Assembly: GCA_964016885.1 (NCBI GenBank)
Contig: OZ024741.1
Span: forward strand, 331,328,001 to 331,392,000
Length of the DNA: 64,000 nt
Origin: Eledone cirrhosa
Taxonomy: Eukaryota
Direction: 5' to 3'
In this document: in pieces, positions 22,521-62,214 of the stretch
Position numbering within the stretch: position 1 is the first letter of the stretch
Layout: each line of letters starts with the position of its first letter
The notes under the pieces: generated by a model
Databases searched by the model: none
What the model was told of the DNA's origin: nothing
The model's input: the letters and a program-made list of their open reading frames with translations, nothing else
Made by a program: the position numbers and the translations under genes

Positions 22521-23034
22521 AATATATACATGCACGCATCCATATACGTACATACACATGCATACGCGAACACACCCGCCGTTTGTATACAAATACAGGC
22601 ACGTACACAAAAACACGCGCACACATACAAAAACCCACGCAACGCCTGTACCCGCACACATACGAACGTATACACCAAATACACATAAAACATATATAAA
22701 AAATATATACACATGTGTGTGCGTGTGTACGCGTATACATATAATTATATAAACGTATATAAATATACACACATAAAAACGTATATAACGCGCGCGCACA
22801 CACACACATACCTACATGTAAATACACATATGTTCGCTAAACGTATGTCAACTAAAACACAAAGTACACATACACACACACCCTACATACATGAAAACCC
22901 GCATACACACATGTACCAGTATATATAATATAATATATACACCTATAACAAATACAAGCAAATATACGTACGAGAAAGTATACGTATCTTCACAAAACAT
23001 ACAGGTAATATATACTTTGGACCCTATTTCTACC

Positions 23035-24065: not shown

Positions 24066-24813
24066 ACTTCATTTATACCATAAACGTGGTTTTGTCTTTG
24101 CGTGTAATTGTTCTTAACGCTCCAAATAATGATGTATTATCTTCGTTTTTTTACGTTCTTTGCCAGGGAACGTTTCCACGAACCAAAGTATCGTCTTCCT
24201 GTCTTCTTTCGGTTGCAACGTTTTTCGAAATATTTACTTCTGCGTTCACAGATTGATTTTTTTTAGTTTCAGAAGGTCCCGTTAAGAGTGCAAGCAGCGA
24301 TTCTTTGCTTAAACTTTAATCTGTTATTTTAATAAATACATATATCTAGGGCGGGTAAAATTCCCGAGATCCATGGACGAGTTCTCTCCAGCGGTCTCTG
24401 TCCCTCATTATCGCTGCCATGTCCTGCGTCTCTAACAGACCAGTGTCTGTACTTAGGGCATCAACATACGTTAACCTTGGTCTTCCTCTTCCAGTGTATC
24501 CATGTAGGGCTCCCACAGGAGCACTGAGTGCAATGTCAACTCTGGATGTCGGTGAGGATGTCCAGCTAACCTCAATCTCCTCTGTGTCACTTTTGAGCTG
24601 ACTTTTGGGCCAATCCCACTCTCTGAGCGACAGTAGCTATAACCCCAAAGAAGAAAAGATCAACATCATCGGTAACTACTGAGCCGCAGATTTTATGTCG
24701 GAGTTATCCCAGTTTCCTGAGTTGCTTCTCCTAGAAGAATACCCTGACAAAGGGTAATTATTAATAATTATCAATTAATGCCATCGTGCAATACATACAT
24801 ACATACATATGTC

Positions 24814-25454: not shown

Positions 25455-25969
25455 TAACAGATTAAAATTTAAGCACCAAAGAATCGCTGCTTTCACACTT
25501 AACGGGATCTTCTGAAACAAAAAAATCAATCTGTGAACGCAGAAAATGAATCGCTGCCTAAAAGCAGTATGAAGTACACTAGGACTAACTGATGTAACCG
25601 TTGGCCTTGTTTGTTTATATTTTGTTTTTGTGTATGCAAAAATATCTGTCAGTGATGCATGTGATTATGTAATCGCCAGCCTTGTTTTTTTATATTTTGT
25701 TTTTGTGTATGCAAAAATATCTGTACAGGAATATCTATATTAAAATAACATATTAATGTTTAAGCAAAGAATCGCTGCTTTCAACCTTAACGGGATTTTC
25801 TGAAACTAAAAAAAATCAATCTGTGAACGCAGATGTAAATATTTCGTAAAACGTTGCAACCGAAGGAAAACAGGAAGACGATACTTTGGTTCGTGAAGAC
25901 GTTCCCTGGCATAAGAATATATATATATATACACACACACACTATATATACATATATACACACACACAT

Positions 25970-38236: not shown

Positions 38237-38381
38237 GAGAGCAGACCTCCACATATAACCGAAGATGGTGCTAAAGAAGGGAATGGTATTAATACAATTG
38301 GTAGAAGAGGCACCAGTCGCAGAGATAGCGAAAATGGATGGCGAATAGATGATTCAACAAAACATTATGAAGAAATACCAG
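38237..38381 (+). CDS. Protocadherin cytoplasmic exon (ESRPPHITEDGAKEGNGINTIGRRGTSRRDSENGWRIDDSTKHYEEIP)
   Basis: Acceptor ccttctttccatAG ends 38236; phase-0 entry matches the 30979 donor; 48 open codons of unique sequence ending in a HYEEIP tyrosine motif; possible phase-1 donor CAG|GTTATT after 38381. Confidence 0.7.
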
Positions 38382-41323: not shown

Positions 41324-41358
<35 letters not shown>

Positions 41359-41964
41359 CTAATGAGAGGAGAAAGATGAGAGAGTGAGAGAGACAATGAG
41401 AGAGGAAGAAAGAGAGAGAAATAATGAGAAAAGAAGGGAGAGAGAGAGGAATAATGAGAGAGGAAGAGAAATAGAGAGATAAAGGGAGAAGAAGAAAGAG
41501 AGGGTAGGGTGGGGTCAGAAGGAGAAATATAATTATAGATAAATACTTAGACAGACAGACAGATAGCTAGATATACAAATAGACACTGATAGACAGATAG
41601 ATAGATAATGTTAGAAGCTAATGAAAAATAGATAAACATACAAACAACATTAATTTCCCTGCCTCCCTTGCAGCTCAAAGTTACTAAGAGGGGGTGGGGG
41701 TAGACATTTCCGAGGATGAAGAATTCTTCAGAGTATTTAGTATAATAATTAGAAACTGGAAGAGATGAAATGACTAACTGGATAATGGAGGGTACTAACA
41801 TTTCATGGGTCAAGAATTCAAAGTGCATATAAAGCATTCCTGTTGTATTTCAGCTCAATACCCTAGGGAATTGGTTCCCTCCCTACCTTTTCACTACCAA
41901 AGACCCCTTTTGTTTAAATTAACTTTCCCCATGGACACCCCACTACAATTATATTCCTAGATAA

Positions 41965-42745
41965 TGGTTTCTGATTGCTAATTTAGGCACAAGGCCAACA
42001 ATTTTGGTGGAAGGGAAAGTCAATTAAATTGACCTCAGTGCATTACTGGTTCTTTATTTTATTAATCCTGTAAGGAGAAAGGCAAAGGTAACCTCAGCGA
42101 AATTTGAACTCAGAATGTAAAGGGTCATAACTCTATGCTGAAAAGAAAATATATAAAGGCTTCTGATTTAGGCACAAGGCCAACAGTTTTTGGGGAGGGC
42201 AAAGTTGATTAAATCAGCCCCAGTGCATTACTGATTAAAGTGCATTTATTTTATTGACCCCGTAAGAATAAAAAGCAAAGCTGACCTCAGCGAGATTTGA
42301 ACTCAGAATGTAAAGTGATGTTACTATATACCACAAAGTATGTTGTCCGATGCTCTACTGATACTGCCAATCCACTGCCCTAACAATAATAACAATAATA
42401 ATTGTTTCTACTTTAGGCACAAGGCCAGCAATTTGAAGGGAGGGGAAAGTTGATTAAATCGACCCCAGTACATTACTGGGTCTTTATTTTATCGACCCCA
42501 TAACGATGAAAGGCAAAGTTAACCTCGGCGGAACAACAATAATAATAATTGTTTCTACTTTTGGCACAAGGCCAGCAATTATCCCAGTGTATTACTGGTA
42601 CTTTATTTCATCGACCCTGTAAGAATGAAAGGCAAAGTTAACCTCGGCAGGATTTGAACTCAGACCATAAAGGGCTGTAAGTCATTGCTGCAAAGCATGA
42701 CATCCGACCCTCTACCGATACTGCCAATCCACCACCCTCAATAAT
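41965..42745 (-). mobile_element. Stack of four to five SINE family B copies in the same orientation
   Basis: Repeated ggcacaaggcc...gcaaag.t.acctc.gc...tttgaactcag units, some joined by (AAT/AAC)n. Confidence 0.8.
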
Positions 42746-42877
42746 AATAATTTTAATTAAAATGTTTCTTTATAGAGAAGAAAGATAACCATTAGTGTGT
42801 GTATATTATGTTTTTAATAAAGTGCTTGAGATTTAAAAATTAACTCAATTCCCCAATCCCTTGTTCTATCTTTACAG

Positions 42878-42960
42878 AGCCAGGTCTAATGCCAGGCTTT
42901 GAGGCTCAAAGAATAGAAGGCGGGGCTAAGAACATTTTGGGGTGGGGGTGGGCACTCTAA
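42878..42960 (+). CDS. Candidate last protocadherin exon A (E-PGLMPGFEAQRIEGGAKNILGWGWAL*)
   Basis: Strong acceptor cccttgttctatctttacAG; open in phase 1 to TAA at 42958-42960. Confidence 0.25.
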
Positions 42961-43974
42961 TTCACAGTAATTCTAAGGTGGGGTTTTGGAATAAGTTTAT
43001 CACCATAGATTTTTCTAAACCTGAGGGTGTACAATTGAAAAGTGCCATCTTGTGTTCCCCTTCATATCTTGATAATGGGTTCTTACTGACCTCAGGCTAG
43101 GAACATTGACCTAGTGATTCTGTTGATTCACCTTCCCCCTATAACTGAAGTATAAGTTGTATGTAGATTTTAAAAAAAAAGGGGGCAATACAATTTATTT
43201 TGAGATGGCCATTCTGCAAGAGCATGTCTGAAACCACATCCGGTTCTACAATCATTGTCTTTCATTAAAAATATGGCAATGAAAGGATTAAAGTGTTTAT
43301 ACTTATATAAACAAATTTCTATCATGATTTTATGTAAGAAATGTTGTTAAGTTATGCTCTAAACATCAACTTGATAATGAGAAAGTTAATCATATTTTTA
43401 AATTCTTCCATTTTTTGATAATTTAAAAAATAATTTGAAAATCATAAGCAGTGTCTTTCATCAGAAACATGGTAATGACAGGGTTAAGCATTTTACTCTT
43501 TCTAATCCTAGTTCTCCTAGTCTTCTTTGTATCTCACCATTTTCCCCACACATCATTTCAACTCCCCCTCATCACCTTCTGTCACATCTTCAGCCATATC
43601 CTCCTGCTTCTAATTCCACCCCACACCTCTGTTCCTTATCCCCTATTCCTTTCTTTAGCTCAAAGGTAGTCAATATCCTCAGAAAAGTAGAGGAGAGAAG
43701 TTATCAATTAAATTTATCTCACCTCAATAAACAGCACAAAACTGGTTTCAGGCTGCCACATTTGCTGTTTACATCATCCCCGCCCCCGGGCTTCCACTGC
43801 TTCATTTGTCTCAGTTTCTCATTCTCATTTCTACACCTTTCCCATTTCTCTTCCTGTCAGTCTGCATACTTGCCTGTCTGTCAGTTTACTCCACCCCTAC
43901 TCACACACACAGAGACACACACACACACACACACACTCTCCCCCTCTCTCTCTATATATATATGTGTGCATGTG

Positions 43975-44005
<31 letters not shown>

Positions 44006-44485
44006 ATGTGTGTGAATATATATATGTGTGTGTGTGTGAATATATATATATGTGTGTGAATATATATATTGATGATGATGGTGATGATGATATATATATA
44101 TATATATAATTATATGTGTGTGTATGTGTGTATATGTGTGTGTGTGTGTATTACTTGTACACTTCTTATACCTTGCTAAAGAGACGTGCAGACACACCAC
44201 TGAAAACTAACAAAAAACACAAAAGAACTAAAAATTAAAATATAAAAATACAAAAAGTATATCAACGCACAGACAGACACACATACAGACAGACACACAC
44301 ATACATACGTCCACCCACCCACCTACACATACACATACCCCACATATACAACACAAAGAAACCCTCCAAATAATCTCTTCTAATCAGTAAGCCAGTGATT
44401 AACAAAGAGAAGTAAGTCTGAGATATTTGAGATAAACAATATGATAATAGACTGTCATTTAAGATTCATCTCATTGTTTACAGAG

Positions 44486-44935
44486 AGATTTTGGTAGAAT
44501 TCTTTGGTAAAATATTCCATTGTTTTCCTTAGATTTTGGAAGAATTCTTAGCCAAAATATTCCATTCACTTCCTTAGATTTTGGTAGAACTCTTTGGTAA
44601 AATATACCATTGTCTTCTTCAGATTTTGGTAGAATTCTTTGGTAAAATATTCCATTGTCTTCCTTAGATTTTGGTAGAACTCTTTGGTAAAATATACCAT
44701 TGTCTTCTTTAGATTTTGGTAGAATTCTTTGGCAAACAATGTTATTGTCTTCTATAGAATTTGGTAGAATTCCTTGGTAAAATATTTCATTACCTTCCTT
44801 AGATTTTGGTAGAATTCTTTGGCAAAATATTTCATTGACTTCCCTAGATTTTGGTAGAATTCTTAGCCAAAATATTCCATTATCTTCCCTAGATTTTGGT
44901 AGAATTCTTAGCCAAAATATTCCTTATCTTCCTTC
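44486..44935. repeat. 45-bp minisatellite, 10 copies
   Basis: Unit AGATTTTGGTAGAATTCTTTGGTAAAATATTCCATTGTCTTCCTT recurs every 45 nt from 44486 to 44891. Confidence 0.9.
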
Positions 44936-45859
44936 AGTATCCTAACTTTTTATTTTTAAAAAATATTTTTTCACTTCACATTATGATATTATAAAAAGTG
45001 TCATTAGCTTTTAGTGGAGATTTAATGGCAATATACAAAGGTGGACTGAAAAGTTCATAGGCTGATTATGAAGGAGTGATGCTAGTGCATGCATTAATTT
45101 CAACTCTTCTTATTAATAACTGCATTGTTTCATTCCAAGGACTTTGTTGAAAAATAAACCTCATTTGATCAATCCATGAGAGTATCTTGGCCAACCTATG
45201 AACTTTTCAGCTGTCTCTCATATTGACATATGGTGTGTGTTGAGCATTTGAAATCTCTCCAAGTTGTAACACAGCCAGAGAGAGAGAGAGAGAGAGAAAT
45301 CAACCCTAGTACTGGATGGGTTCTTTAGCTATAGACCTAGAAAAGATGAAATGCAAAGTTGACATCACTCACAAGTAGTATATGATAAGAGAAAGCGAGA
45401 GAGGGGGAAGAATCGACCCCGGTACTAGATTGGTACTTTATTTATCGACCTTGAAAGGAAGAAAGAGCAATATAATTTACTTCAGCAGGATTTGAACTTA
45501 CAGTGCAGAGAATTGGAACAAAATACTGAGGCATTTTAAATCCAACACTTTTACACCTCTGCAAATGCACCTTATTAGGATATTAAAAATGCAATTCATT
45601 CAGGAACAGAAAAATGAAAGATAGTCAATATATATATATCATCATCATCATCATCATTTTACATTCGTTGTTCTACGCTTGCATGTGTTGTACAGGTCCT
45701 TCTCAGTATAGCATCTCTCCACTTGTCACGTTCCTTTGTCATCTCCTCTGTGAGCTTTAGTGATCTGAGATTAGCTCCCACCACTTCGATTCGGGTCTTC
45801 CTTGGTCTTCCTCTACCATGGCCTCCCTCCACTGGGATTACTCAGTACTTCTCCACCCA

Positions 45860-46200
45860 GTGATCCTGGGCATTACTGTCAGCAGCGATTTGTGTTGGAC
45901 AAAGCATGTCTCTAAAATCGTCAAGAAGGCCGAGGGTGTCTTAGCATCACTCAGCAAGACCTTTGTCAGTCGCTCTCCAGCTATCTATTTAAAGCTGTAT
46001 ATAGCTATGATGCGGCCACACTTAGAATTTGCATCACCAGTCTGGAACCCCTATCTTGCTCAGAACATTGATCTCGTGGAAACTGTTCAGAGACGTGCAA
46101 CCAAGCGAATACCCTCCCTCAGGCATCTACCATACTCAGAACACCTTTCTTCCCTGGGCATGGATACATTGAAGCTCCAACGTCTGGCAACGTGGACATG
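45860..46200 (+). mobile_element. CR1/L2-group LINE RT C-terminal fragment, fused to an inverted RTE 3' end (45650-45860)
   Basis: LGITVSSDLCWTKHV...RPHLEFASPVWNPY...VQRRATKRI. Confidence 0.75.
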
Positions 46201-47006
46201 CCCACAATGGAGAAAATCACAGTGCAGCTTTCTTTAGCCAGGTGAAAAACTAAAAGAAGAATATTTTCTAATGATCTGTCTGCCCCAGGAGGATATAAAA
46301 GGTGAATGTTGCATATTATGTTTGTGTGAAATAAGATGTTATTGGAGCAAGAACTGTGTCTGAAATGACATTTTCACACTTTTTACTTTGAAAGGTTGCA
46401 GAATATAGACTACAAATGAGACAGTGAGAATATAGTGCTAGTGTAAGTAATAAAAGGGGTCAGTTATATAGGTTAACTCAGACAGAACAACTTAGAGAAT
46501 TAGCCTACTGTCACCATTTGCAAGATTTTATAGCCTTAGCATCTCTCCTTCGTGGTCAGCCTATGAACTTTTCAGTTGACTCTCATAGGTTAACTCAGAC
46601 ACAGAAATCTAAAGAATTAATCTACTGTTACCACTTGCAAGATTTTACAGCCTTAGCATTCCTCCTTCATGGTCAGACTATAAACTTTTCAGCTGACATC
46701 TCATAGGTTAGCTCAGACAGAACAATCTAGAGAATTAAACTACTGCCACCACTTGCAAATGAGGATGATTTGGTAACATGTACTATGCTTTTGTTAATAA
46801 ACAATGTACGTAGCTGAGAGATTGGACTTTGAAGCACTAAGAATATAGAATTAATATAAAGGATGATGTGCAGAATGCTATAAAGATAGCTTATAAAATT
46901 GGGTGAAGACAGAAAAAAAAGTTGCCATCAGCCACTATGAGGAATTAAACCTCATAGCGGCTGATGGTAACTACTGTTGCTGCTGTTGCTACCACTACTG
47001 TTGCTT

Positions 47007-47048
<42 letters not shown>

Positions 47049-47376
47049 AAGATCCTCTTCAGATTTTAGTCTTCACATTTATTATTACTATATATATGTA
47101 TATGCATTTTTTTCTTCTAACTTTAATTTTATACCTAATTGTGTATGGTTGACGGTATATTTAATCGATTTCCACGTGCTGTTGAAATGTTGGGTAAATA
47201 TTCTATGGTGGTTGGTCGCGAAGAGATTGCTGTAGTATATTTATCTACTATTTCTTCATAGGTGCCTTTTAATCTTATAGCCTGGTCTAATTGATTTTTT
47301 GAGTGGTTAATTATGCTAATTGGGAGAGGAAATGGTGTATATATATTATCAAATGATTCTATGGACATACTTTATA

Positions 47377-47417
<41 letters not shown>

Positions 47418-47420
<3 letters not shown>

Positions 47421-48693
47421 GGTGTGGACGATATTTGTTCGCAAGATTACTGTCTAGGAAAAAATAACACAGTAGTTTTATTTTTTAAGATATATTTATC
47501 AAACTTAGGTCAGTTTGTCTTCATGACTTGTTCTTTCGATATCACTCGATAAACCCGCCATTGGCTTTGATGACGGCCTCAAAGCGGCCTTGGAACCGGC
47601 TACAGGCCTTCGTCACTGTCCCCCGACTTAGGCCCCTAAAGGCACTTGTGATCCTGGCCTTCAGATCGTCTTTCGTATTGCTGCTAGATTTGTTGGTGTC
47701 TCGTTCCACTGCGCCCCACACAAAGAAGTCGAGGGGGTTGCAGTCAGGCGAGCTTGGAGGCCAGATGTCGACGAAGTTCTGACAGCCAGGCTTGGGTCTT
47801 TCGGCTGGTATGGCAAGGCGCTGAGTCTTGCTGCCAAACGTACGGCCTACCTGCAGCTACCTGGTCGATCCAGGGCTTTACTACCTCGCTCAGAACGCGG
47901 ATGTAGCCATCGGATGTAGCCAGGGAAACAGTGAGGTGGAATGATGTCACCTTGACCGCTGGCGACACCTAAGACCAATGTTGTCGCTGGAAACTTTGTC
48001 TGCATGACTCTGGGCACATCTTTGGATGAGACAGCGAGCTCCCTGTTGTTCTGGGAGTTGATCTTCTGGTCTTGGCAGAAGTTTTTCTCGTCGGAAAAAA
48101 ACCACAGCATGTCTGGCTCCAGCGGGTGTTTCAACTTGTTGATCAGCTTCTTTGCGTGCTTCAGTCGCTTTTCTTGCATCGCCTTTGACAGAAATTGTCC
48201 TTTCCTCATCTTGTATGAAATGTAGCGAATGTCTTCATGTACCACCAGCCTAATGAGCTTTTCATCCACGCCTTTCTCCCTTGCAATGGCATGCATCGAC
48301 TTGCTAGGTTCATTGTTGATGATATCCTGAACTTCAGCGACGAACTCGAGCGTTCTGAAGGCATCAGATCGTCGATCATATGTTTTCCTCTCTGATGTTG
48401 CTTCGTAGTCGAATCTTGAATCTTCCAATTCCTTTCTGACCTTTTCCACCATTCTCCTGGTGACGCTGAGAAAGTCTGAAATTTCCTTATTTGTCCTCCT
48501 GGCGTGGATTCCAAGAAGAACTTCGTGTCTCTTCCACAAATTTGGAGGTTCAAAATTATTCATAATCAATTATTCCAAAAATAAATAATGGAAATATAGT
48601 CACTGTTTTTATGAAGACAAGAGTGACAACGGAAGTAAAAAAAATTTGCATAAAATTAGCAGTTGAAAAATGCGAACAAATATCGTCCACACC

Positions 48694-48696
<3 letters not shown>
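47418..48696 (-). mobile_element. Tc1/mariner DNA transposon (maT/DD37D-like) with both TIRs and a disrupted transposase
   Basis: Perfect 26-bp TIR CAGGGTGTGGACGATATTTGTTCGCA flanked by TA, inside (TA)n; motifs FFSDEKNF, WQQDSAPCH, WPPSSPDCNPLDFFVWG split over three frames. Confidence 0.92.
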
Positions 48697-48730
<34 letters not shown>

Positions 48731-49399
48731 GGAGCGAGAGACTCCTAGTCTTCATTAAGACATCTCTGTTGGAGAAGGTCGCTTTGATATAAAAAATGTG
48801 CCTTTGTCTGCATCCAATGATGTAGATCAGTTTTACTTTCGACATTCAATGAGTGGGATTGGTCCTGTGCAAAGCTTTTCCTCACTTAAAAAAAGCTTCA
48901 AGTACAGGCATCACTTGATATGTGACATTTTTAGCCATGCGTGGCATGGCTGGCCATAGGTAAGTCCTAGCAGCACTAGAAAGCCAAGTCCGTGATGGTC
49001 ATGCTTAAATATCAAGCAATGGCATTACCCGAAATTGAGTTGCAGCCATCATGCATGTATGTATGTATGTATCTTGGTTAAGAGAGTGGGACTGGCTTTG
49101 TGCAGTGCCTTTGCTCACTATAAAAGCTTCACGGCACAGGCATTGCTTTATATCTGGAGATCTCTCTGCACTTGTCGTCACATGGTACCATGGGCCCAGC
49201 ACTATGTGTCAATAATTGTCACAAGTGTAGTGTTTGTACCAGAGTTTTCAAGTCGCTGGCTGGACTAAAAAGTCACACTCGTTCAGCGCATCGGTAGGGG
49301 TTCTCCTACATGGATATAAAGTGTGGCCATACTCGAAAACGAGTTGGCAGCCACCATGTATGTATGTATGTATGTATATTCTTCTGGTTTTATAATTTC

Positions 49400-50090
49400 A
49401 CAAATTTTTGCCAATAGAGAGAGTCGGTTTCTAACATAGGCACAAGATTCTCTCATTGGAATTTACAGAACATCAACTAGGTAGATATGTCTGCATGTCT
49501 GCATGCATGTGTGCAGGTATGGATGTTATTGTATGTGTGGATGTGTTTGTTTTGAGTTGTATGTGTGCATGTGCTTATGCTTTGTATCTGTACAAGTGTA
49601 TATGCAGTTATTAGATGGAAAATATTTAGAATGTTTTACATATTTTTACTGTTCCATTAATGGATTGTACTTGTAATTTCCTAACTAGTTGTGTTCTTTC
49701 TGTGAAGCCCAGCTTCTCAAGATTTGTATTGAGGCAGTTACAAACATATCCCAGGGCCCCAATATTCACAGGCATAAATCTGAAGGTATAGTCAGAGTGG
49801 AGTATCTGCAGATTTCTCATTAGTTCTGCATAAATATTCTCCTTTTCGTTAATCTTTGATATTATATTGGCATCTGTTGGGCAGCTAACTTCCACTACTT
49901 TGCATGTCTTCTTTTCCCTGTCCCATATCATTATATCTGATCTGTTATGCCTGCACTTTATTGGGGTTTTTACTGGAACATTCCACCAGTACTCTTTCAT
50001 ATTATGTATATGGATGTCTTCCACATTGCTGTAGCTTTAATGTGTTTGTCATCGGGGCTATCTTTTCTACGGATTGCCTTGTACAGTGTT
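49400..50090 (-). mobile_element. R4/Dong-like element 3' end (restriction-like endonuclease)
   Basis: ORF 49626..50024: HNRSDIMIWDREKKTCKVVEVSCP...IGALG; related decayed pieces at ~50560-50680 and ~62660-63560. Confidence 0.75.
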
Positions 50091-51555
50091 TTGGGTATAT
50101 TTGGGTATATTTAGGTATATTTTGGAGGCACATGGCTTAGTGGTTAGAGCATTGGCCTTGCAATCGAAAGGTCGTGAGTTCAATTTTCAGACCGGGTGAT
50201 GTGTTGTTTCCTTGAGCAAGACACTTTATTTCACATTGCTCCAGTTTACTCAGCTGTAGAAATGAGATGATAGGGACTTGGATCCATATCATTCCACTGC
50301 AAAGTGAACGTGGAGGTGCCACGGCAAAAAAGCACCCAGCACTCACTGTAAATGAGGTTGGTGTTAGGAAGGGTATCCAGCTGTAGAAATCAAGCCAGAA
50401 TCAGTTCCTGTCCCACCCTTGCAAGCAGAGAAAAAGCGGACATAAAATGAAATGAAATGAAAAATGAAATGATGAGACAGTTTCTCTGTGATACTATTTA
50501 TCTTGTCATTAAACCCCTTGTCCTTTCTGCTCAAGAAATGTGAAGGATACATCATTGGCTAGCAGGAGAACAGAAATACAAACCTAACCCATAATTTCTT
50601 TGTGGATGATCTGAAACTCTATGCCAAGAACATAGATGGGATGAAGAAAAATCTTAAACTGGTTACAACATTCTCAAAGAACATGTATGTATGTATGTAT
50701 GTATGTATGTATGTATGTATGTATGTATGTATGTATGTATGTATGTATGTATGTATCTATGTATGTATGTCAGGTCACCAGTTGGTGCTACTGGTAACAT
50801 GTATCCCAGTACAACCTGTCTCATGGTCGGGTCGTTGGCGACTAAACTGGCAACCCCGACCAAGGTTTCTTGGTGAGGAGGGTGACTTTGGACATCCTGC
50901 AGGACTAAAAACAAAACCTGTCAAAGGGCAAAGGACCTCTTAAGAGTCAATGGCCATTCCAAAATCACTGGGAGAGATGACCCCTTAGCCTTTGTCAAGG
51001 CAGAATTCTAGGAGAAGGAAAACTTTGATATAACACCTGCAACCCTGATGGTATCCAATGATGTTGACTTCTTCTTTTTGGTAAATATCATCTTGGTTAA
51101 GAGAGTGGGACTGGCTTTGTGCAGTGCCTTTGCTCACTAAAAAAGCTTCACGGCACAGGCATTGCTTTATATCTGGAGATCTCCCTTTACTTGTCGTCAC
51201 ATGGTACCATGGGCCCAGCACTATGTGTCAATAATTGTCACAAGCGTAGTGTTTGTACCAGAGTTTTCAAGTCAATGGCTGGACTAAAAAATCACACTCG
51301 TAGGGGTTCGGTAGGGGTTCTCCTACATGGATATAAAGTAGTGGCCGTACTCGAAAACGAGTTGGCAGCCACCATGTATGTCTGCATACATATGTCTGTA
51401 TGTATCTACATCCAGTCCTATAATCTCGTTTCTACAGCTGAGTAAACTGGAGCAATGTGAAATAAAGTGTCTTGCTCAAGGAAACAACATATGACTCAGT
51501 CTGAGAATTGAACTCACAATCTTTCGATTGCAAGCTCAATGATCTAACCACTAAG

Positions 51556-51615
<60 letters not shown>

Positions 51616-51622
51616 ATATATG

Positions 51623-51795
<173 letters not shown>

Positions 51796-51863
51796 GTGGT
51801 TACACAACAGTTAGTTCACCATACCGAGAACAATTGTTTCTCCTTAGCGGATCCTCAGCATTA

Positions 51864-51901
51864 CGAGCTGAGGATCCGCTAAGGTGAAACAATTGTTCTC
51901 G
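51864..51901 (+). ncRNA. Minimal type I hammerhead ribozyme inside a 69-bp inverted repeat
   Basis: CGAG-CTGAGGA-T-CC-GCTAA-GG-T-GAAAC-AATT-GTT^-CTCG; arms 51791-51859 and 51867-51935. Confidence 0.75.
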
Positions 51902-52002
51902 GTATGGTGAACTAACAGTTGTGTAACCACTTCTACCTAACTCGTCCCATGGACTGAGTGCTCTACTACTACGGATATTACCTTCCAGTGTCCTACCACT
52001 AT

Positions 52003-52050
<48 letters not shown>

Positions 52051-52221
52051 AAATGTGTGTAATCCTTGGTACAGTTAGGTATATTAAGACAGGGGGGAAG
52101 AAAAAATGGCTTCACTTGTGCTTTCAACAAATTTATTTTCTTCACAAAATCCAAAAAGAATTTTTCTTAAAAAAAATTATTTTATAAATTATATATATGT
52201 ATTTTATAAATTATATATATG

Positions 52222-52287
<66 letters not shown>

Positions 52288-52329
52288 CATGTATGTATAT
52301 ATATATGTATATATATATATAAAAAAAAG

Positions 52330-54090
52330 TAATAGCGCAACTAATCAGAGAGAGAATTGATCTAGATGAAATGCAGTTCGGGTTTGTGTCAGGCAAAAGT
52401 ACCACAGACGCTCTTTTCATTGTACGACAACTACAGGAGAAGTACCTAGCTAAAAGTAGACCCCCATACTTAGCTTTTGTCGACTTGGAGAAAGCCTTCG
52501 ACAGAGTCCCCCGTTCCATTATCTGGTGGGCTCTTAGAAAACTAGGTGTTGAATGGCTTGTGAGAGCCATATAAGCCATGTATAAAGAAACAGTCAGCAA
52601 GGTTAGAATTAACAACGAATATAGTGAAGAGTTTAGCGTAAAAGTTGGTGTCCATCAGGGCTCTGTTCTTAGCCCCCTACTATTTATTATTGCCCTTCAG
52701 GCTATAACAGAGGAGTTCAAGACCGGCTGCCTATGGGAACTCCTATACGCAGATGATCTAACGCTCATAGCTGAATCAATGGCCGAGCTAGAGAAGAAAT
52801 TCCAAGCATGGAAGCACGGCCTAGAATCAAAAGGCCTTAAAATTAACCTAGCTAAGACTAAAGTTCTAGTTTGTAAGAAAGAAAATAAGGCGGCGGTCCC
52901 TTCCGGGAAGTGGCCATGCTCAGTGTGTAGGAAAGGCGTAGGTAGAAACTCCATTTTATGTCCCAAATGCAAAGTATGGGTGCATAAAAGATGTAGTGGG
53001 ATCACAGGTAAGCTAACTAAGAACATAGATTTTACATGTGGCCGGTGCTCTGGTGCAATAAGTAGCAGCAAGTGCCCACAAAATAATAGCTCTTTCAATT
53101 GCGTTCTATAGAAATAGTGGACAGCTTCCGTTACCTGGGTGACAAAATTAGCAGTGGTGGAGGGTGCTCTGAAAGTACAGTAGCTAGAGTCAGAACTGGA
53201 TGGAAAAAGTTCAGAGAGCTTATACCACTATTAGCCGCTAAAGGGTTCTCCCTAAAAATGAAAGGCAGGTTGTATGATGCCTGCATACGAACAGCAATGT
53301 TGCATGGCAGTGAGACCTGGGCATTGTGTGCAGAGGATATACGCAGACTAGAGAGGAACGAAGCTTGCATGCTCCGCTGGATGTGTAATAGTAATATACG
53401 TGAACGACAAAGCATAAACGAACTAAGGAAAAAATTAGAAATAAGAGGGATCAGATGTTGTTTACTCGAGAGAAGGCTACGTTGGTATGGTCACGTGATG
53501 CGCATGAAAAACGACGGCTGTATAACAAAGTGCAGGGCAATAAAGATAGATGGTAGCCACGGAGCAGGCAGACCCAGAAAAACCTGGGACGACCTGATAA
53601 ATTCCGACCTCACACACTTACACCTCTCCAAGACAATGTCACTGGACCGAGACCTTTGGCGGTACTCAGTAATAGAGAAGACCCGCCTTACCTAAATACA
53701 AAGTAAAACCTACTACAGTCAGTAGGCATCTCTAACAAAATACACCCCCGTCCCACCTTCCCCCACCCCATCCACACCGCCCCTTTCAATGTAAAGTTAT
53801 GTTGGTGCCACAACATCCAGGCCGAAACAAATGAGATCGTGTAGGTGTCACGACAAAAAAACACACAGTCCACGCTGTAATGTGGCCGTGTAGGCAACAC
53901 GGTAAAAACCTCCCAGCCCCACACTGTAAATGTGGTTGGTGTTAGGAAGGGCATCCAGCTGTAGAAAACCCGCCAGACAGTCCTATGCTAGCAATGACAA
54001 CCACTCTTGCCTCAAGTGGGAAAACTCCCGTCCAAACCCATGCAAGCGTGGAACATGGACGTTAAACGATGATGATGATGATGATGATAT
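52330..54090 (+). mobile_element. RTE-clade LINE, 3' portion with 3' UTR and (GAT)n tail
   Basis: ORFs 52371..52574, 52578..53111 and 53099..53695 carry the same RT motifs plus CxxC...CxxC...HxxC...CxxC. Confidence 0.9.
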
Positions 54091-56355
54091 ATATATAAGG
54101 ATAAAAGATGAAATCGAAATGCAACTGGAGTCTTTTTATTTTAAATATATATTTATTTGGTTCCTTTACTGGTTTCGCAGTTCTTCTGCTTTTCAAAAGT
54201 AGAATTGAGATGGAGGGTCTGTGGTTTTTCTCACATCTGGTTGGTCTTTGAATGTTACTTCTGTTTTATATGGAAAAAAGTGGCTCGAAATGAAGGGTGT
54301 TTTTCCATATATGAGTGAAGTTTGGTTGGTTGATGCAGTCATGTGAATAGGCACATCAGCTTTCGCGCCAGTTTGTGTTTGAATTTTTTTTTACTTAAAA
54401 AAGGTGACTCATGAAGGCTTTTTTTTATAAATGTAATTTGATTGGTTATAAATGAAATTATTAAATTTCGCGCCTGTATTTTGGAATTTTTTTGTAGCCA
54501 TTTAGAGAATTTTGTGCCAAACAGAAAATAATTGTTTCTACTTTTTGGCACAGAAAATAATGGTCAAGAAAAAGGGATGGAGAGAGTTGTTCTGAGTATG
54601 ACTGATGTGCTGAAATGTAATTTGATTGGTTATAAATTAAATTATGACTGTCACATGAACAAGTACATTAAATTTCGCACTGTATTTGGGAATTTATTTT
54701 GTAGCCTTTTAGAGAATTATATGACAAACAAAAGATAATGGTCAAGAAAAACAGGATGGGGAGAATTGTTCTGGTTCAGTGAATATGGCTGGTGCGCTGG
54801 GGTGTCAGAATTCAGACTTTCTATTGAAATAAAGAAAGTAGAGATATGTATGTTTATTTGTGTGCTTGTGTGTGTAGGAAGATGATTCTATTAGTAGAAA
54901 TGGTGGAGGCAGTTGTGTGTGTGTATGGGTGTTATGTGCGTGTGTATGTGTGTGTAGGAGTATGGTTAGCATGTTAAGATGGAGAGAATATATATATATT
55001 TTTTTTGTGTGTGTAGCAAAAATGATTCTATTAGTAGAAATGGGGGCGGGAGTTGTGTGTGTATGTGTATGGGTGTTATGTGTATGGGTGTTAAATGTGT
55101 GTGTTTATGTGTGTGTGGGAGTATGGTTAGCATGTTAAGATGGAGAGAATATATATATTTTGTATGTGTGTGTGTAGGAAAATGATTCCATAAGTAGAAA
55201 TGGGGGAGGGAGTTATGTGTGTGTGGTGGGTGTGGTTAGCATGTTAAGGTGTTAGAGTATTAACGTATGTTAAGGTTTATTTAGTTCTGGTTTTTTATTT
55301 TCTAAAGTAGGTGTTATGTGTGTGTGTATGTATGTGACTGTTTGGATGGTTAGCATGTTATGGTGTTGACATAATGTATATTAATATATATATATACACA
55401 AAGGTTGGCTGAAAAGTTCATAGGCTGACCAAAATACTCTCATGGAATGACCAAACGAGGTTTATTTCTCAACATAGTCCCTGGAAAGAAACCATGCAGT
55501 GATTAATAAGAAAAGTTGAAATTAATACATGCAAGATTTCACAGCTCTAGCATGATTCCTTCATAGTCATAAACAGCCTATGAACTTTTCAGCCAACCTT
55601 TATATATCAGGATTGTGATAAAAGGAAGAGCTAAGCTTTTGATAATTCAAAGCTTACAGTGCACTGGAGCAGAGAAATGTATAAAACAGGCATGGATTAT
55701 AATCAATACACAGTAATGTTATATTAGTAAATTCTGCTTCTTACAGCATCACATGGGGTCATATTAATTATTCTTTCTTCAACTTTGCCCTATTTTCCTC
55801 TTTATAGTCATTCCTGAGAGACCAAACTGCATTTTAGGTAAATAGTTTAGACTAGCATAGAAGTTTAAATTGAAGAATCACCTCTTAAGAATTATTATGT
55901 ACAGCTAGAAACAATATAGCTAATAAGATGAATAAATATTTCATTAATATAATTGCTGTCCAATCTCGCAGGAAATAGTTGATGGTTTAAACAGAGCCCT
56001 TAATTGGAGAAGGGGATTACGGGTGGGGATGGGGGTAGGGAAGGGAGAGAGAGGTCATGGCAAACCACATTTACATCCTGCCTCGCTTTTGATTTCTGAT
56101 TGCAGCCATTTCACTTGACTTATGTTACTAATACCTGCAGGAATCACATGAAATATTCTTAATCATGAGGAATTGAGAAATATATGAGAGTGCACATGTA
56201 TGTGTGTGTGTGTGTGTGTGTGTGTATATCATCATTGTTTAACATCCATTTTCCACTAGCATAGGTAGGATGGTCCCTACCTGTCCCTATGTGAAAGATC
56301 ATGTTGAGGGACCATGATTCACTCATGCAGAACTGATTTTGGCTTGATTTCTACA

Positions 56356-56486
56356 TATTTTATTATAGAAATGATTTCTACAAGACTAGAACTGTTTCAT
56401 TTATAAGAAATCATCAGGACTTTCCTGATGATTTCCTATGAATAAAACAGTTCTAATCCTGTAGAGGTAATTTCTATAATGAAATA
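56356..56486. ncRNA. Inverted pair of degenerate hammerhead motifs, same family as 19441
   Basis: ...GTTTCATTTATAAGAAATCATCAGGA-CTT-TCCTGATGATTTCCTATGAATAAAACAG...; CTGATGA-TTTC...(G/A)AAAC...GTA on both strands. Confidence 0.5.
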
Positions 56487-57326
56487 GGTATGCCTATACT
56501 CTTACCATGACTACCAACATTATGTTTCTTATTCAAGAGAGCATTTAAATATAAGTTGAAAGCAGAGGCAATGGAAAATAGTTCCAGCTAGATCCTGTCA
56601 ACAAAATCTCCATATGGTGTAAATACACAGCAAGTCTCCAATTTCCGAATAGCTAAATGTCAGCAGAAGGGTACCCAGTAATCATAATCTGGATGCAGCC
56701 TGGCCCCCTTAGAGTGTAAGAAGGTAAGGGCCGAAACACTCGCTTGAGGAAGTGGGGTTCTTCTCTGATGACCTGCTGTCCAGCTCTCCCGAGTTTTTCT
56801 TACTCCTACTAACAAATGGAGTACCTTTTTTAACTGCGGTTATCTCCTGATACACATTGGGAATACACCTATATACATATATCATCATCATCATCAACAT
56901 TTAATGTTGTTTTTCCATGCTAGCATGGGTTTGACAAGTTACCCCATTGTGCAACAAGGCAGATCAGATGACTGAGTCTTGCTAATACAGGACTGATTTT
57001 TGGCTTGGTTTCTATGGTTATATATATCATTCATGCTAGCAATAGTTTTACAACCTAACAGTACTTATGTACACATTCATGCATTAACCACAGCTTTTCT
57101 ACATATATATCAATACACACACACATATACACACATACATACATATGTATTCATACTTTGGGTAGGTCATGTTATCAATATAGACATATGCATCAGTGCA
57201 TGAGTATTTTTTGTCAACATGACTCTCTCAAAATATAACAATATCTGTTTCAACACATGATTTCACATCAAGACTTTTGCAAAACAATTACAAAAACAAT
57301 GTCTCTCTCTCTTTCTCACTCTCTCC

Positions 57327-57364
<38 letters not shown>

Positions 57365-58105
57365 GGCTAATGGAGGCACATGGCTTAGTGGTTAGAGCAT
57401 TGGCTTTGCAATCGAAAGGTTGTGAGTTCAATTCTCAGACCGGGTGATGTGTTGTTTCCTTGAGCAAGACACTTTATTTCACATTGCTCCAGTTTACTGG
57501 GGTCCCTATCATTCCTCTGCAAAGTGGTCGTGTAGGTGCCACGCCAAAAAAGCACCCAGCACTCACTGTAAATGAGGTTGGTGTTAGGAAGGGCATCCAG
57601 CTGTAGAAATCAAGCGAGAATCAGTTCCCGTCCTACCCTTGCAAGCAAGGAAAAACGGACGTAAAATGAAATGATGATGATGATGATGATGAAATGATAT
57701 ATATATGTATATCTATATATATATATTGTTATACTTTGCGAGGGTCATATTGCCAATAAAAACACACACACCTGGCAACATGACCCTCCCAAAGTATAAC
57801 AATATCTGTTTCAACATACGTTTTCAGATAAGAAATCTTGCACAACAAATTCTAAAACGAATTATATATATATACACACACTCATATATGTGTGTTTGTG
57901 TGTGTTTGTGCATATATATATATATATAAGTTAAAACAATCAAGTCATTAGAGATATACTTCACTGCTTTACGATCGTTTCTAGATGGTGATAATACATT
58001 GTATCTATACTCAGTTATTGATCTATGTAAGTTTACAAACTATCAGATAGAGAGAATATTTACTTACATGCATATCACCAGCTGTTTTCAAAAGCAACTA
58101 CCAGA

Positions 58106-58239
58106 TTGCTTTTGAAAACAGCTGGTGATATGCATGTAAGTAAATATTCTCTCTATCTGATAGTTTGTAAACTTACATAGATCAATAACTGAGTATAGAT
58201 ACAATGTATTATCACCATCTAGAAACGATCGTAAAGCAG
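58106..58239 (+). ncRNA. Variant hammerhead ribozyme (U3-A8 core, ~100-nt stem II), with an identical copy on the minus strand
   Basis: TTGCTT-TTGAAAA-C-AGCTGGTGAT...ATCACCATCT-A-GAAAC-GATC-GTA^-AAGCAG; arms 57938-58097 and 58106-58265. Confidence 0.55.
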
Positions 58240-59362
58240 TGAAGTATATCTCTAATGACTTGATTTTTTATTTCATTGTTTTAACTTATATCATGACTCT
58301 GTTTTCCTTTTAATGTTTTATTGTTTTCTGAGATTTATCTTAACCTACAACATTTTCAACATATGGATTACATTGAGTTCTTCATGCAGAATAGACCCCA
58401 CAACTTACAGTGGATACCTCTGTGCATATATATACAAATATAAATTTAGCGAGAATCGCATTTCGGCGGGTAGAAATTAGCGAAACGCAACTTCCTTATT
58501 GTGCAGACAAGCGCTCCATGGATATGAAGAAGATACCAGAGCTATAGCATAAGTTAAAATGGTCATACATGCTGAGACGATGGTTAAGAAGCCATTAACC
58601 ACCTTAGCCAAAAAAGCGAACAAGCTAAACGGGTCAAACAAAATGAGATATGATTGAAATAGTTACCCGGACCCTCGGGGAAGATGGAATACTCCGAATT
58701 TGGGTTTCTGTGACACCTAAATCAATAATACTGTCTGCTTATAAAAAATAAGCTTTTGGTATAATGATCGAACAAGGCATCGCTTTCTCAACAGGCATTT
58801 TGTTCTTCGTGGGCCAGAATCTCACAGGTTATGAAAGCACATGTGAGGTTCTAAGGGGAGAAAACCCCTATTTTGGCCAGTGAATTCAGCGTGTGTAGTT
58901 ATTGCAAAAATTTGCAAAAATAGCACAAAACGAATAATATATATATATATATAAAAGCAGACGTAAAATGATGATGATGATATATATATATATATGTGTG
59001 TGTGTATGTGAGTGTCTATATATATTCAATTGTCAATTCCATTTTTCCAGCTTCTCTGCTGCTCCACATTCATCCTCCATATCTCACCCCATAAATCAGA
59101 ACACTTTAACATGCCACTCAGTTTCACAGAAATTCTTCTATGCACCTCACACTCTAGCTACTATCCCCAAGTCTGATTCACCTTCTTAATGTAAAATGTC
59201 TCTAAATCAGTAAAACGTTTTCACACCTTCCATTTTCCCACCATTTCTAAGATCTAGATCAACATCTTTATCTGCAGCACTCCCCCATTTCTCACATTAA
59301 CTTAGAAGTTCCTGTCACATAATTTATATATTCTTGATGTACTATCATACACACACACACAT

Positions 59363-59458
<96 letters not shown>

Positions 59459-59709
59459 CATCATCATCATCACTGTTTAACATCCATTTTTCTATATTAG
59501 CATGGGTTAGACCAGTTGTCTCATTGTGAGACAAGCCAGGTCAGATGATCAAATCTTGCTCATACAGAACTGATTTTGGCTTGGTTTCTACACGACCACT
59601 TTACAGCATGGACTGAGTGCTTTTTGTCATGTCACCTACATGACCATTTTACAGCGTGGGAGCAGGAGGGGGAATGTAGTGCGCACAAGATGTTTGCTTC
59701 AACCTTTGC

Positions 59710-60240
59710 ACATGGGAAGGTGGCTTTTCTGTATTACTGCATAACACCAGAGATTTCAATCCTGGTCATCGCCTTCAAGAGGTGCAAGTGTATAAGGTCA
59801 GCTGTTATCACCTCATCCCAAGTCTTCCTACGTCTTTCTACATCACAGCTTCCATCAACTTTGAGCACCCTGCACCTTTTTATACAGCTGTCATCCTTCA
59901 TACGCATCACATGTTCATACCAATGCAATCTCCTCTCCTGCACACTGTTTCTGCTCACTCATATGCCCACTTTTTCTCTCAATCCATTTATATTACTATT
60001 ACACATCCATCAACACCCAGGTCTCATTACCCTGCAACATTGCTGTTCATATACATGCAACATACAATTTGCCCTTCAGTTTGAGGGAAAAACTTTTTGT
60101 GCTTATCAGTGGTAGTAACACCCTGAACTTTCTCCAACCCATTCTCACTCTGGCTACAGTACTTTCAGAACACCCACCTCCACTGCTAATTTGGTCACTC
60201 AAGGTAACAGAAACTATCAACTACTTCTATCAAGCCCTCT
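59710..60240 (-). mobile_element. RTE LINE C-terminal fragment
   Basis: ERRLHWYEHVMRMKDD...KTWDEVI; similar to 53100-53695. Confidence 0.8.
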
Positions 60241-60299
60241 GGTCATTTAAATGAGTTAGTATCTCTGGGCTCTTGCTACTTACTGCACCTGTACAGTGA

Positions 60300-61010
60300 C
60301 CACATATAAAACCTGTGATAGACCTGGTGAAGGTGAGGGCAGGATGAAAACACTGAACAAAAGAAAGGATTTGAACTGTTCAGGGGAGAGAGAGGTGGCA
60401 CTGATACAATCGTTGATGTAATGACTGTATGACTCAGGGGTCAGACCAGTGTACTGGGTGAAGATCATGGCCTCAACATAGCCAACAAATAAGTTGGCAT
60501 AGTTAGGGTCCATTCTTGTACTCATGGCTACCCCAGAGACTTGTTGGTAAAATTCTCTTGAAAAGGAAAAACCATTAAGAGTGAGAACAAGCTCAACAAG
60601 GTGGAGAAGAGTAGAAGTACTAGGATAGGGGGTAGGGCATAAACTTAAAAAATGCTGGAGAGCATGGAGACTGTCATTGTAACGTAGAGAGAGTTAATGT
60701 CCATGGTAAAGAGAAGGTGAGAGGGACCAGAAGAGAAGGAGTCAAACAGTCAAAGAGCATGTCATCGCGGCGTTGTAGGCTGCGCAGAGCAGAGAGTTCA
60801 GCCTGAGTAAGGTTGATGCAATGAGGGTGCTTCTGGAAATTGAAGTGGTTCAAAGTACATTGACAAGTTTCTACAGATGTATCAAGGGAGCCGAACTGCT
60901 CAGAGCTTGGCATCCACTGTGATTTTTCAGCAGCTGAGACTTGTGAAATAGTCTGTTTGGGCTGATGATGGTGTATTGTAAAAAAATGCCTGAAGCCTAA
61001 GGCAACATAA
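60300..61010 (-). mobile_element. Penelope-like RT fragment (Neptune/Poseidon-type), decayed
   Basis: GVAMSTRMDPNYANLFVGYVE...YINDC; upstream LTQAELSALRSLQRRDD. Confidence 0.75.
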
Positions 61011-61630
61011 GAACTGTTCAGCCTCAGCACATGTTCGGAACTCATCACAAACACACACACACACATATATATATATAAACAAACATTAAATGTTGATGAG
61101 GATGATGATGATATATATATGTGGGTGTAGATGTGTATGTAGTGATTTTAGCTTGTAAGACATTGGAAAATTTGAATAACCAGATTTCAGAATATTAATG
61201 CATCATTGAAAACAATATCACACAACACTAAGGTAAATGGTGATATGCCATTTCATTGTCATAACTTTAAGATAAGCAGTTGTGCTCTGCTGTATCACAA
61301 TTAAAACTTTAAGACAAGCTGTGCTCTACTGCACCACTGTCATAACTTTAAGACAAGCATTGCACTGCTGTATCACAGTCATAACTTTAAGATAAGCAGT
61401 GGTCTGCTGTATCACAGTCATAATAAGACAAGCAGCAGTATGCAATAATATATACAGTTCAGTTAAATCTATGATATTATAGAAAAATCATACCCTAAAA
61501 CAAAAACTATATTGAGTACTGATGCAGAACATACATACATTCACACACACACACTCACACATATATATAAAGATAATATATTTTATATATACATACAAAC
61601 ATACATACATACAAGCATACAAACATACAA

Positions 61631-61669
<39 letters not shown>

Positions 61670-62113
61670 CATAACTTTCTTTGCAGTTCATACAAACAGA
61701 TTACATCAGTTTCTTTCTGTTTGCATAGTTGTATATATTTTTCATACATAGTTTGTATATATTGTATATATTGTTTATACATCCATTTTGTCCATAATTC
61801 ATGTCAATATTCTTTACCAAAAAACACACAAAAAAAAACAACAAAAACAAGAAACAAAACAAAAAAACATAAAACAAACGTAAAACCAAACACAGAGAGG
61901 CTGATATGATGAATCGAGATTTCTAAACATTTCAAAGAAGCTATTTCTTTGAAACATTATAGGTTTTGATTCATGAGACTATTTGTTTGTTTGCTTGTTT
62001 GTTTGGGTGTTTTTTCATATTACTTTCAATATAGACAATCTGAAAAATGACATTGTGTTCAATAAACTATAGTCAAGATTTTTCTGAAATAATCTTTATT
62101 GAATCTTTTGCAG

Positions 62114-62214
62114 CACTTCGGTTTCCAAAAGATGTCCCTCCAGTTGAAACACTGTTTGAGAACAAGAACATACTTCACACTGTAAATCTTGCTAAAGGTA
62201 CAACAAATCTATGA
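62114..62214 (+). CDS. Candidate last protocadherin exon B (A-LRFPKDVPPVETLFENKNILHTVNLAKGTTNL*)
   Basis: Acceptor gaatcttttgcAG; open in phase 1, matching the 38381 donor; lies in non-repetitive sequence, with ATTAAA about 40 nt after the stop. Confidence 0.3.

What the first reader, a model, noticed from the sequence alone, without database searches (positions are those of the whole stretch)
57938..58265. Perfect 160-bp palindrome containing a variant hammerhead with a U3-A8 core and a ~100-nt branched stem II
Seen: arms 57938-58097 and 58106-58265 are exact complements around the 8-nt loop CTACCAGA. Each arm folds as stem I UUGCUU/AAGCAG, core UUGAAAA, stem II AG(C)UGGUGAU/AUCACCA(U)CU enclosing an inner AUGUAAGU/ACUUACAU hairpin, then GAAAC-GAUC-GUA. 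Established: the 3-8 pair needs Watson-Crick geometry, and U3-A8 keeps it. Inference: the double change looks compensatory rather than like decay. Arm identity implies a recent inversion or gene conversion. A read-through transcript would form 160 bp of dsRNA that blocks the ribozyme fold and could be an ADAR or Dicer substrate.
Basis: partly seen in the sequence, partly recalled or inferred. Interest (0 to 1): 0.75.

Follow-up and report, generated by a model that had tools for sequence, protein, structure and literature searches.

The report
Mirror-image Penelope stub, long-armed hammerhead
This palindrome is the short end of a common jumping gene pasted head-to-head into an intron of a protocadherin gene, a known layout; the unusual part is a predicted self-cutting RNA whose second arm is about 100 bases long and likely carries a splice site just after the element's likely transcription start, with cutting and splicing untested.

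Summary
The 160-bp palindrome and the type I hammerhead motif are real. Both arms are the 3' end (pseudo-LTR) of a young Hydra-clade Penelope-like retrotransposon with over 900 copies here. They were inserted head-to-head into (TA)n, one arm ending at each of the family's two fixed 3' ends (22 of 26 such pairs). So arm identity needs no later inversion or gene conversion. U3-A8 is the family consensus and covaries with C3-G8 in two sister families, but it is already published for Penelope hammerheads. The stem II fold is an unbranched rod, not branched. I did not find in print a 95-115-nt stem II, shared by over 5,400 motifs. It holds a GTAWGT donor-like word about 31 nt after a hotspot of copy 5' ends (a likely transcription start), matched by a conserved AG about 35 nt before the ORF start. 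Splicing there would remove half the ribozyme. No RNA data were available, so cleavage and splicing are untested. This copy lies in intron 2 of a protocadherin gene, so a long pre-mRNA hairpin is plausible. The scan noted long-stem hammerheads and similar palindromes before, on other DNA.

The parts
57924..58097 (-). Inverted copy of the element's 3' end (pseudo-LTR), ending at the family's short 3' end in (TA)n; lacks 12 nt relative to the family
58098..58104 (.). 7 junction bases between the two 5' ends, not continuous family sequence
58105..58427 (+). Direct copy of the element's 3' end, running about 135 nt further to the family's long 3' end ('tail'), then (TA)n
58105..58240 (+). Type I hammerhead motif: stem I 58105-58111/58234-58240, core U3-A9 58112-58118, stem II region 58119-58221, G12-A15.1 58222-58225, 2-bp stem III with palindromic loop, predicted cut after A17 58233
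57964..58097 (-). Mirror copy of the hammerhead motif, predicted cut after 57970
58105..58105 (+). Candidate transcription start: many copies begin within a few bases of this position (inferred)
58136..58141 (+). Donor-like word GTAAGT inside stem II (GTAWGT in 72 of 83 distinct copies of three families); splicing untested
58158..58183 (+). Tip of stem II, the most conserved part of the insertion across three families; role unknown
58365..58385 (+). Motif conserved in the tail of all three families, near the long 3' end; candidate RT-binding site (inferred)
57907..57920 (+). Possible 14-bp target-site duplication, repeated at 58421-58434; ambiguous because it overlaps (TA)n and the element's end
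   Evidence: sequence
38382..62113 (+). Intron 2 of the host protocadherin gene (exons end 30979; 38237-38381; from 62114), which contains the insertion

Best explanation
This is a 5'-truncated, head-to-head insertion of the 3' end of a Hydra-clade Penelope-like retrotransposon in a (TA)n tract of a protocadherin intron, and each arm carries the element's hammerhead motif, predicted to cut but untested. Shown: family identity, copy number, two fixed 3' ends, one used by each arm, and covariation of the core and stem I. Inferred (about 0.6): both ends of a break in (TA)n primed reverse transcription at the two fixed sites of an unspliced RNA that likely starts at 58105; both cDNAs ran to its 5' end and were joined. 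Inferred (about 0.6): the hammerhead cuts after 58233 only weakly, as a dimer through ACGAUCGU or with protein help. Inferred (about 0.45): the long stem II is the start of a 5'UTR intron, so splicing removes half the ribozyme and the upstream AUGs. In the host pre-mRNA this copy would fold into a 160-bp hairpin that blocks its own ribozyme.
For: Family: 1,365 candidates, 40 scored, main matches 99-100% identical; 936 core matches. L062 shows inverted copy + pLTR + RT ORF + pLTR. An intact sister-family ORF has RWR, DKT, CxCx5C, CxxC..E..N..CxH and no CCHH, the Hydra signature in PMC8557442 section 11. Two fixed 3' ends about 55 and 190-200 nt after A17, both into (TA)n, in all three families. 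Of 26 head-to-head neighbours, 22 were one short plus one long end, 4 had one unclassified end, none had two of a kind. On 25 copies: 4 of 9 stem I pairs, the 3-8 pair and pair 10.2-11.2 change on both sides; 91.4% of cells paired against at most 54.4% for slid controls. Stem II folds as a rod in all families despite different sequence, z -2.1 to -6.9 for 5 copies. 5' ends: 11 of 32 family B/C loci begin within about 11 nt of position 3; 5 of 29 other family A loci begin 7-9 nt before it. Donor in 72 of 83 copies; AG|TTGAGCTC 34-36 nt before the ATG in 6 junction loci of three families, with 4-12 ATGs between. Penelope has a 75-bp intron 46 bp after its start (PMC2377424); Chlamys-3 has a 398-bp intron spanning the pLTR boundary (PMC8557442).
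Against: No cleavage or RNA data. One arm prefers a non-hammerhead fold by 3.2 kcal/mol. 10.1-11.1 is unpaired in 21 of 25 aligned copies. The covariation comes from only three to five lineages, not 25 events. Family A has the weakest stem II (z about -2.1). In an anole element, ribozyme mutants did not affect insertion and no reads ended at the cut site (PMC11167929). The donor word also base-pairs in families B and C, so pairing alone may conserve it; the acceptor lacks a clear pyrimidine tract; no spliced genomic copy was found (4 matches, all another repeat). A few pairs join different families and may be chance neighbours. The 5'-end classes were made by eye on loci I picked. A published rival explains head-to-head repeats by self-priming (PMC3846280).
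Confidence: 0.88

Rival explanations
1. The hammerhead is now catalytically idle; the insertion in stem II is kept as a DNA promoter element or protein-binding hairpin of the pLTR.
For: Non-hammerhead free fold; C.A next to the core; the stem II tip is conserved in sequence with little covariation; many copies begin upstream of the cut site, so their template RNA was uncut; ribozyme dispensable for insertion in vitro (PMC11167929).
Against: C3-G8/U3-A8 swap, free variation at position 7 (A, C, U, G) and stem I covariation are what selection on a catalytic core predicts. A mismatch at 10.1-11.1 occurs in 15 of 26 Hydra rows of PMC8557442 File S2, and a U.U mismatch there is described in natural hammerheads and as supporting more cleavage than other mispairs (PMC3088659).
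Confidence: 0.3
2. The head-to-head structure arises by self-priming fold-back of one cDNA or of an antisense template, not by two primed cDNAs.
For: Proposed in PMC3846280. Several junctions overlap by a few palindromic bases (L123, L125, L127).
Against: Arms end at two different fixed sites, each in (TA)n, in 22 of 26 pairs, matching the two initiation sites and two-strand priming seen in vitro (PMC11167929). This junction has 7 filler bases; many pairs have arms of unequal length.
Confidence: 0.25
3. A single copy was later duplicated by local inversion or homogenised by gene conversion, or the unit is a MITE with long terminal inverted repeats.
For: Arms are 100% identical over 160 bp.
Against: 7 of the 30 best loci (this one included) are identical to the arm and 29 are within 2 mismatches (top hits, so biased upward). 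The left arm stops at the family's short 3' end, and the same layout recurs with varied junctions at many loci. The right arm has an unpaired tail.
Confidence: 0.04
4. Assembly fold-back artefact.
For: Perfect palindromes can be read chimeras; this exact junction was not seen in the pieces listed from three contig runs (output truncated).
Against: Arms differ by a 12-nt gap and by the tail, each ends at a biologically fixed site, and flanks are unrelated. A 221-nt contig of run X3 spans a similar head-to-head junction of another copy.
Confidence: 0.03

Closest known systems
Hydra-clade Penelope-like elements and their hammerheads (Craig et al. 2021, PMC8557442; passages, section 11, supplement parts 1-2 of 59 read), including Hydra-1_Obim
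   Same: ORF motifs, C-terminal GIY-YIG-type endonuclease, (TA)n targets, pLTR with type I hammerhead, adjacent inverted 5'-truncated copy, one-sided tail, frequent mismatch at 10.1-11.1.
   Different: All 26 Hydra rows of File S2 have C3, stem II of 3-7 bp and loops of 3-10 nt; here U3-A8 in one family and 95-115 nt between the core halves. Tail about 135 nt against 30-40 bp. Units 4-7 kb against generally under 3 kb.
Minimal hammerheads of metazoan PLEs (Cervera and De la Pena 2014, PMC4209133; parts 1-2 of 4 read)
   Same: U3-A8 variant (about 1,300 hits in Schistosoma mansoni), extra base after A9, short palindromic stem III, opposite-strand pairs 100-700 bp apart, predicted dimer action, low activity.
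   Different: Helix II there is 6-8 bp with a conserved G10.1-C11.1; here about 100 nt with C.A or U-A. In D. virilis the intron's 3' end meets helix I; here a donor-like word lies inside stem II.
Penelope of Drosophila virilis (PMC2377424; abstract and passages) and Chlamys-3_cRei (PMC8557442 passage)
   Same: Start site in the pLTR followed closely by a 5'UTR intron (46 bp after the start in Penelope; 398-bp intron spanning the pLTR boundary in Chlamys-3).
   Different: There the introns are shown by RNA; here both start and intron are inferred. Chlamys-3 has no canonical hammerhead.
Poseidon element of Anolis carolinensis (Frangieh et al. 2024, PMC11167929; parts 1-2 of 4 read)
   Same: Two internal RT start sites that define the tail; both target strands extended; hammerhead in the pLTR.
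   Different: Its sites lie inside the ORF and the tail is the usual short one; here both lie in the 5'UTR, about 135 nt apart.

Membership tests
Hydra-clade PLE | RWK-type motif and DKT in place of DKG in the RT region | tested here: met
   RWR and DKT in P0001, a sister-family ORF; DKT in family A locus L062, RWR in L069
Hydra-clade PLE | C-terminal GIY-YIG endonuclease with CxCx5C linker, CxxC and CxH around E and N, no CCHH | tested here: met
   read in family A loci L039/L043 and P0001; Pfam GIY-YIG weak, E 0.0006-0.0014, below cut-off
Hydra-clade PLE | Insertion into (TA)n | tested here: met
   67 of 75 family A ends run into a microsatellite within 700 nt, mostly (TA)n
Hydra-clade PLE | Phylogenetic placement with published Hydra RTs | not tested
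   published sequences were not brought into a tree; homologues found are unnamed or hypothetical proteins
EN+ PLE insertion layout | pLTRs in partial tandem, inverted 5'-truncated copy, one-sided tail | tested here: met
   L062; tandem units in family B; 22 of 26 pairs long+short
Type I hammerhead ribozyme | Core N3-UGA-N-N8-A ... GAAA ... UH with Watson-Crick 3-8 pair | tested here: met
Type I hammerhead ribozyme | Stems I, II and III closing the core | tested here: met
   stem I covaries; stem II rod in all families; stem III 2 bp, invariant, so no covariation
Type I hammerhead ribozyme | Paired 10.1-11.1 | tested here: not met
   C.A in 21 of 25, U-A in 4 of 25; mismatches here are common in Hydra rows of File S2
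Type I hammerhead ribozyme | Match to an Rfam hammerhead model | tested here: not met
   none at E up to 10, probably because of the 103-nt insertion
Type I hammerhead ribozyme | Self-cleavage after H17 | not testable with these tools
   no assay, no raw RNA reads
Spliceosomal 5'UTR intron of PLEs | Conserved donor and acceptor upstream of the ORF | tested here: inconclusive
   donor 72 of 83, acceptor-like AG in 6 junction loci of 3 families; weak pyrimidine tract
Spliceosomal 5'UTR intron of PLEs | Spliced RNA | not testable with these tools
   no RNA holder listed
Non-LTR retrozyme | Non-coding tandem repeat units each with a hammerhead | tested here: not met
   the motif is the end of an ORF-bearing element
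MITE / foldback DNA transposon | Fixed symmetric termini | tested here: not met
   asymmetric ends and variable centre

The most novel reading that the evidence does not exclude
In these octopod Hydra-clade elements the first 135 bases of the transcript are an active hammerhead whose 100-nt stem II hides the 5' splice site of the 5'UTR intron. The RNA faces a splice-or-keep choice: splicing destroys the ribozyme, the upstream AUGs and both RT start sites to make mRNA, while the folded, unspliced RNA is the only template for copying or is decapped by self-cleavage. That would explain why Penelope-like elements keep their introns.
Probability: 0.3. Interest if true: 0.7.

Novelty: new variant of a known kind. 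Interest (0 to 1): 0.42.

Why it matters
The palindrome and the U3-A8 core are known features, so the locus itself is ordinary. The family is the useful part. Standard descriptors and Rfam miss a hammerhead with a 100-nt stem II, yet over 5,400 such motifs lie in this genome. If the start site and intron are right, the element gives a direct test of two open questions: what the Penelope hammerhead is for, and why these elements retain introns. Such insertions also seed perfect RNA hairpins in host introns, here a protocadherin, in an animal group known for heavy A-to-I editing (recalled, not tested).

Tried and rejected
RNA evidence: no RNA holder listed. The three runs offered are contigs of one sample and unknown kind. 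They showed no intron-like joint on L062:3300-4000 and did not list this junction; this is no evidence either way. They did show loose (TA)n ends at both fixed 3' ends.

Spliced genomic copies: could not have caught the predicted joint; could, and found 4 matches of an unrelated repeat. Absence is expected if only unspliced RNA is copied.

Rfam: only microRNA-hairpin and other sub-threshold matches at the locus.

Neptune clade: my first guess, dropped after reading the motifs. Pfam does not recognise the RT.

RNAalifold on the three-family alignment did not recover stem II because the middle does not align, and proposed an invariant GAUC-GAUC pairing between the stem II tip and loop III; without covariation I do not rely on it. 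My generic hammerhead scan of the window missed this motif through a pattern fault and is not used.

Papers not held: Lunse et al. 2017 on PLE hammerhead variants and Arkhipova et al. 2017. They, and the unseen supplements of PMC4209133, may describe long stem II variants. Searches that found no description of a 100-nt stem II or a donor inside it; most results were seen as listings only. The Octopus vulgaris repeat paper (PMC13282606) has no occurrence of 'hammerhead' or 'ribozyme' in its main text. The retrozyme preprint (10.64898/2026.07.22.740005; part 1 of 5 and passages) and PMC6765202 (passages) added only background.

Full report
Observation. The arms 57938-58097 and 58106-58265 are exact complements around CTACCAGA. 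The match resumes for 14 bp after a 12-nt gap in the left arm. The right arm reads as a type I hammerhead: stem I 58105-58111 with 58234-58240, core UUGAAAA, 103 nt, GAAAC-GAUC-GU, A17 at 58233. Positions 10.1-11.1 are C.A. A single arm prefers a non-hammerhead fold by 3.2 kcal/mol. Rfam gives no hammerhead match.

What it belongs to. The arm is a young dispersed repeat: 1,365 candidates, 40 scored, main matches 99-100% identical, and 936 exact matches to a 19-nt core pattern. Upstream, other copies run through an AT-rich UTR into an endonuclease and RT frame. Locus L062 holds an inverted 5'-truncated copy, an upstream pLTR with the hammerhead, the ORF and a downstream pLTR. An intact 813-aa ORF from a sister family has RWR, DKT, CxCx5C, CxxC and CxH around E and N, and no CCHH. 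These are the Hydra-clade features in PMC8557442. I did not build a tree. The host protocadherin's C-terminal part is 84% identical to an Octopus bimaculoides protein, so the genome is likely an octopod's.

How the palindrome arose. In families A, B and C copies end at two fixed sites, about 55 and 190-200 nt after A17, nearly always into (TA)n. Of 26 head-to-head neighbours in the fetched loci, 22 paired a short with a long end, 4 had one unclassified end and none paired like with like. A few join different families and may be chance. This locus is short (left) plus long (right). The inverted copy and one-sided tail are the described layout (PMC8557442; PMC3846280). An anole element extends both target strands from two RNA sites that define the tail (PMC11167929). 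I infer that two cDNAs were primed from the two sides of one break and joined at their 5' ends. Self-priming (PMC3846280) remains a rival. Arm identity needs no conversion: 7 of the 30 best loci equal the arm and 29 are within 2 mismatches (top hits). An assembly artefact would not give the 12-nt gap or the two fixed ends.

Is the hammerhead under selection? In family A, 936 copies have A8 and 2 have G8; the first 100 listed all have U3. Families B and C have C3-G8. Of 95 distinct cores read without fixing positions 3 and 8, 57 were U-A and 38 C-G (loci were seeded by such cores). On 25 copies, 4 of 9 stem I pairs, the 3-8 pair and pair 10.2-11.2 change on both sides; 10.1-11.1 is U-A in 4 and unpaired in 21. 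These reflect three to five lineages. Stem II differs in sequence between families but folds as a rod in each (z -2.1, -2.2, -5.0, -5.4, -6.9). The 3' half of the motif occurs 5,463 times, control 0. U3-A8 is known in nature (PMC3088659, passages) and in Penelope hammerheads (PMC4209133). Such ribozymes cut weakly and as dimers; the stem III octamer self-pairs at -10 kcal/mol. Cleavage here is untested.

What is different. All 26 Hydra rows of File S2 have C3, 3-7-bp stem II and 3-10-nt loops; 15 have a 10.1-11.1 mismatch. Here the region is 95-115 nt. GTAWGT lies in its 5' strand in 72 of 83 distinct copies. AG|TTGAGCTC lies 34-36 nt before the ORF's ATG in 6 junction loci of all three families (7 loci given to the script; the seventh shows the same word). 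The 335-442 nt between hold 4-12 ATGs and both fixed 3' ends. Copy 5' ends cluster at the 5' edge of stem I. Of 32 family B/C loci picked from the listing, by eye 11 begin within about 11 nt of position 3, 13 run on upstream, 4 abut another repeat at that spot and 4 begin inside stem II. Of 29 other family A loci, 5 begin 7-9 nt before U3. An earlier scan note (e1-9836276) suggested reading such a cluster as the RNA start. The spacing, donor 31 nt after the start, resembles Penelope (46 bp, PMC2377424). Against: no RNA run, no spliced genomic copy, a weak pyrimidine tract, and the donor word also pairs in B and C.

Context. The insertion lies in intron 2 (38382-62113) of a three-exon + strand protocadherin gene. 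In pre-mRNA the two arms would pair (-273.7 kcal/mol), hiding the ribozyme and the donor-like word. Editing or dicing is plausible and untested.

Verdict. The palindrome is a known Penelope insertion layout and U3-A8 is published. The 100-nt stem II with a likely start site and splice donor is a variant I did not find in print (searches listed under Tried and rejected; two key papers not held). Earlier scan notes report long-stem Hydra hammerheads in other genomes. Interest 0.42.

Noticed in passing
window 28598-30979, 38237-38381, 62114-62212 (+): Three-exon protocadherin gene; its C-terminal part of exon 1 is 84% identical to an Octopus bimaculoides protein.
   Followed up: yes
window 51793-51935: A second near-perfect palindrome that appears to fold back inside a hammerhead stem II: each arm keeps only GAAAC-AATT-GTT with a palindromic stem III.
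   Followed up: no
window 22822-24083 (-): Fragment of another Penelope-like RT with GGLYRDD and similar motifs, probably a more distant Hydra-type family.
   Followed up: no
window 24161-24341 and 25731-25911: 181-nt inverted repeat, 91% complementary, 1.4 kb apart, next to that RT fragment; similar sequence precedes the truncated element in L039.
   Followed up: partly
L158, L160, L161, L167, L088; window 16525-16893: A repeat of about 184 bp, tandem in the window, abuts stem I of family B hammerheads in 4 loci and interrupts the tail in one, suggesting a preferred target or a template switch.
   Followed up: no
L129, L130, L135: Family B occurs as 6-7-kb tandem units, some with an intact 813-aa ORF, so it is probably still active.
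   Followed up: partly
window 58437-58930: The right flank is another repeat with 70-91% matches in several loci; not identified.
   Followed up: partly
L137-L140: Four copies of an unrelated repeat with a CUGAAAA word followed by a short hairpin; C3 faces A8, so not a standard hammerhead core.
   Followed up: no
window 58180-58183 and 58227-58230: The invariant GAUC at the stem II tip is complementary to the palindromic loop III; no covariation, meaning unknown.
   Followed up: partly
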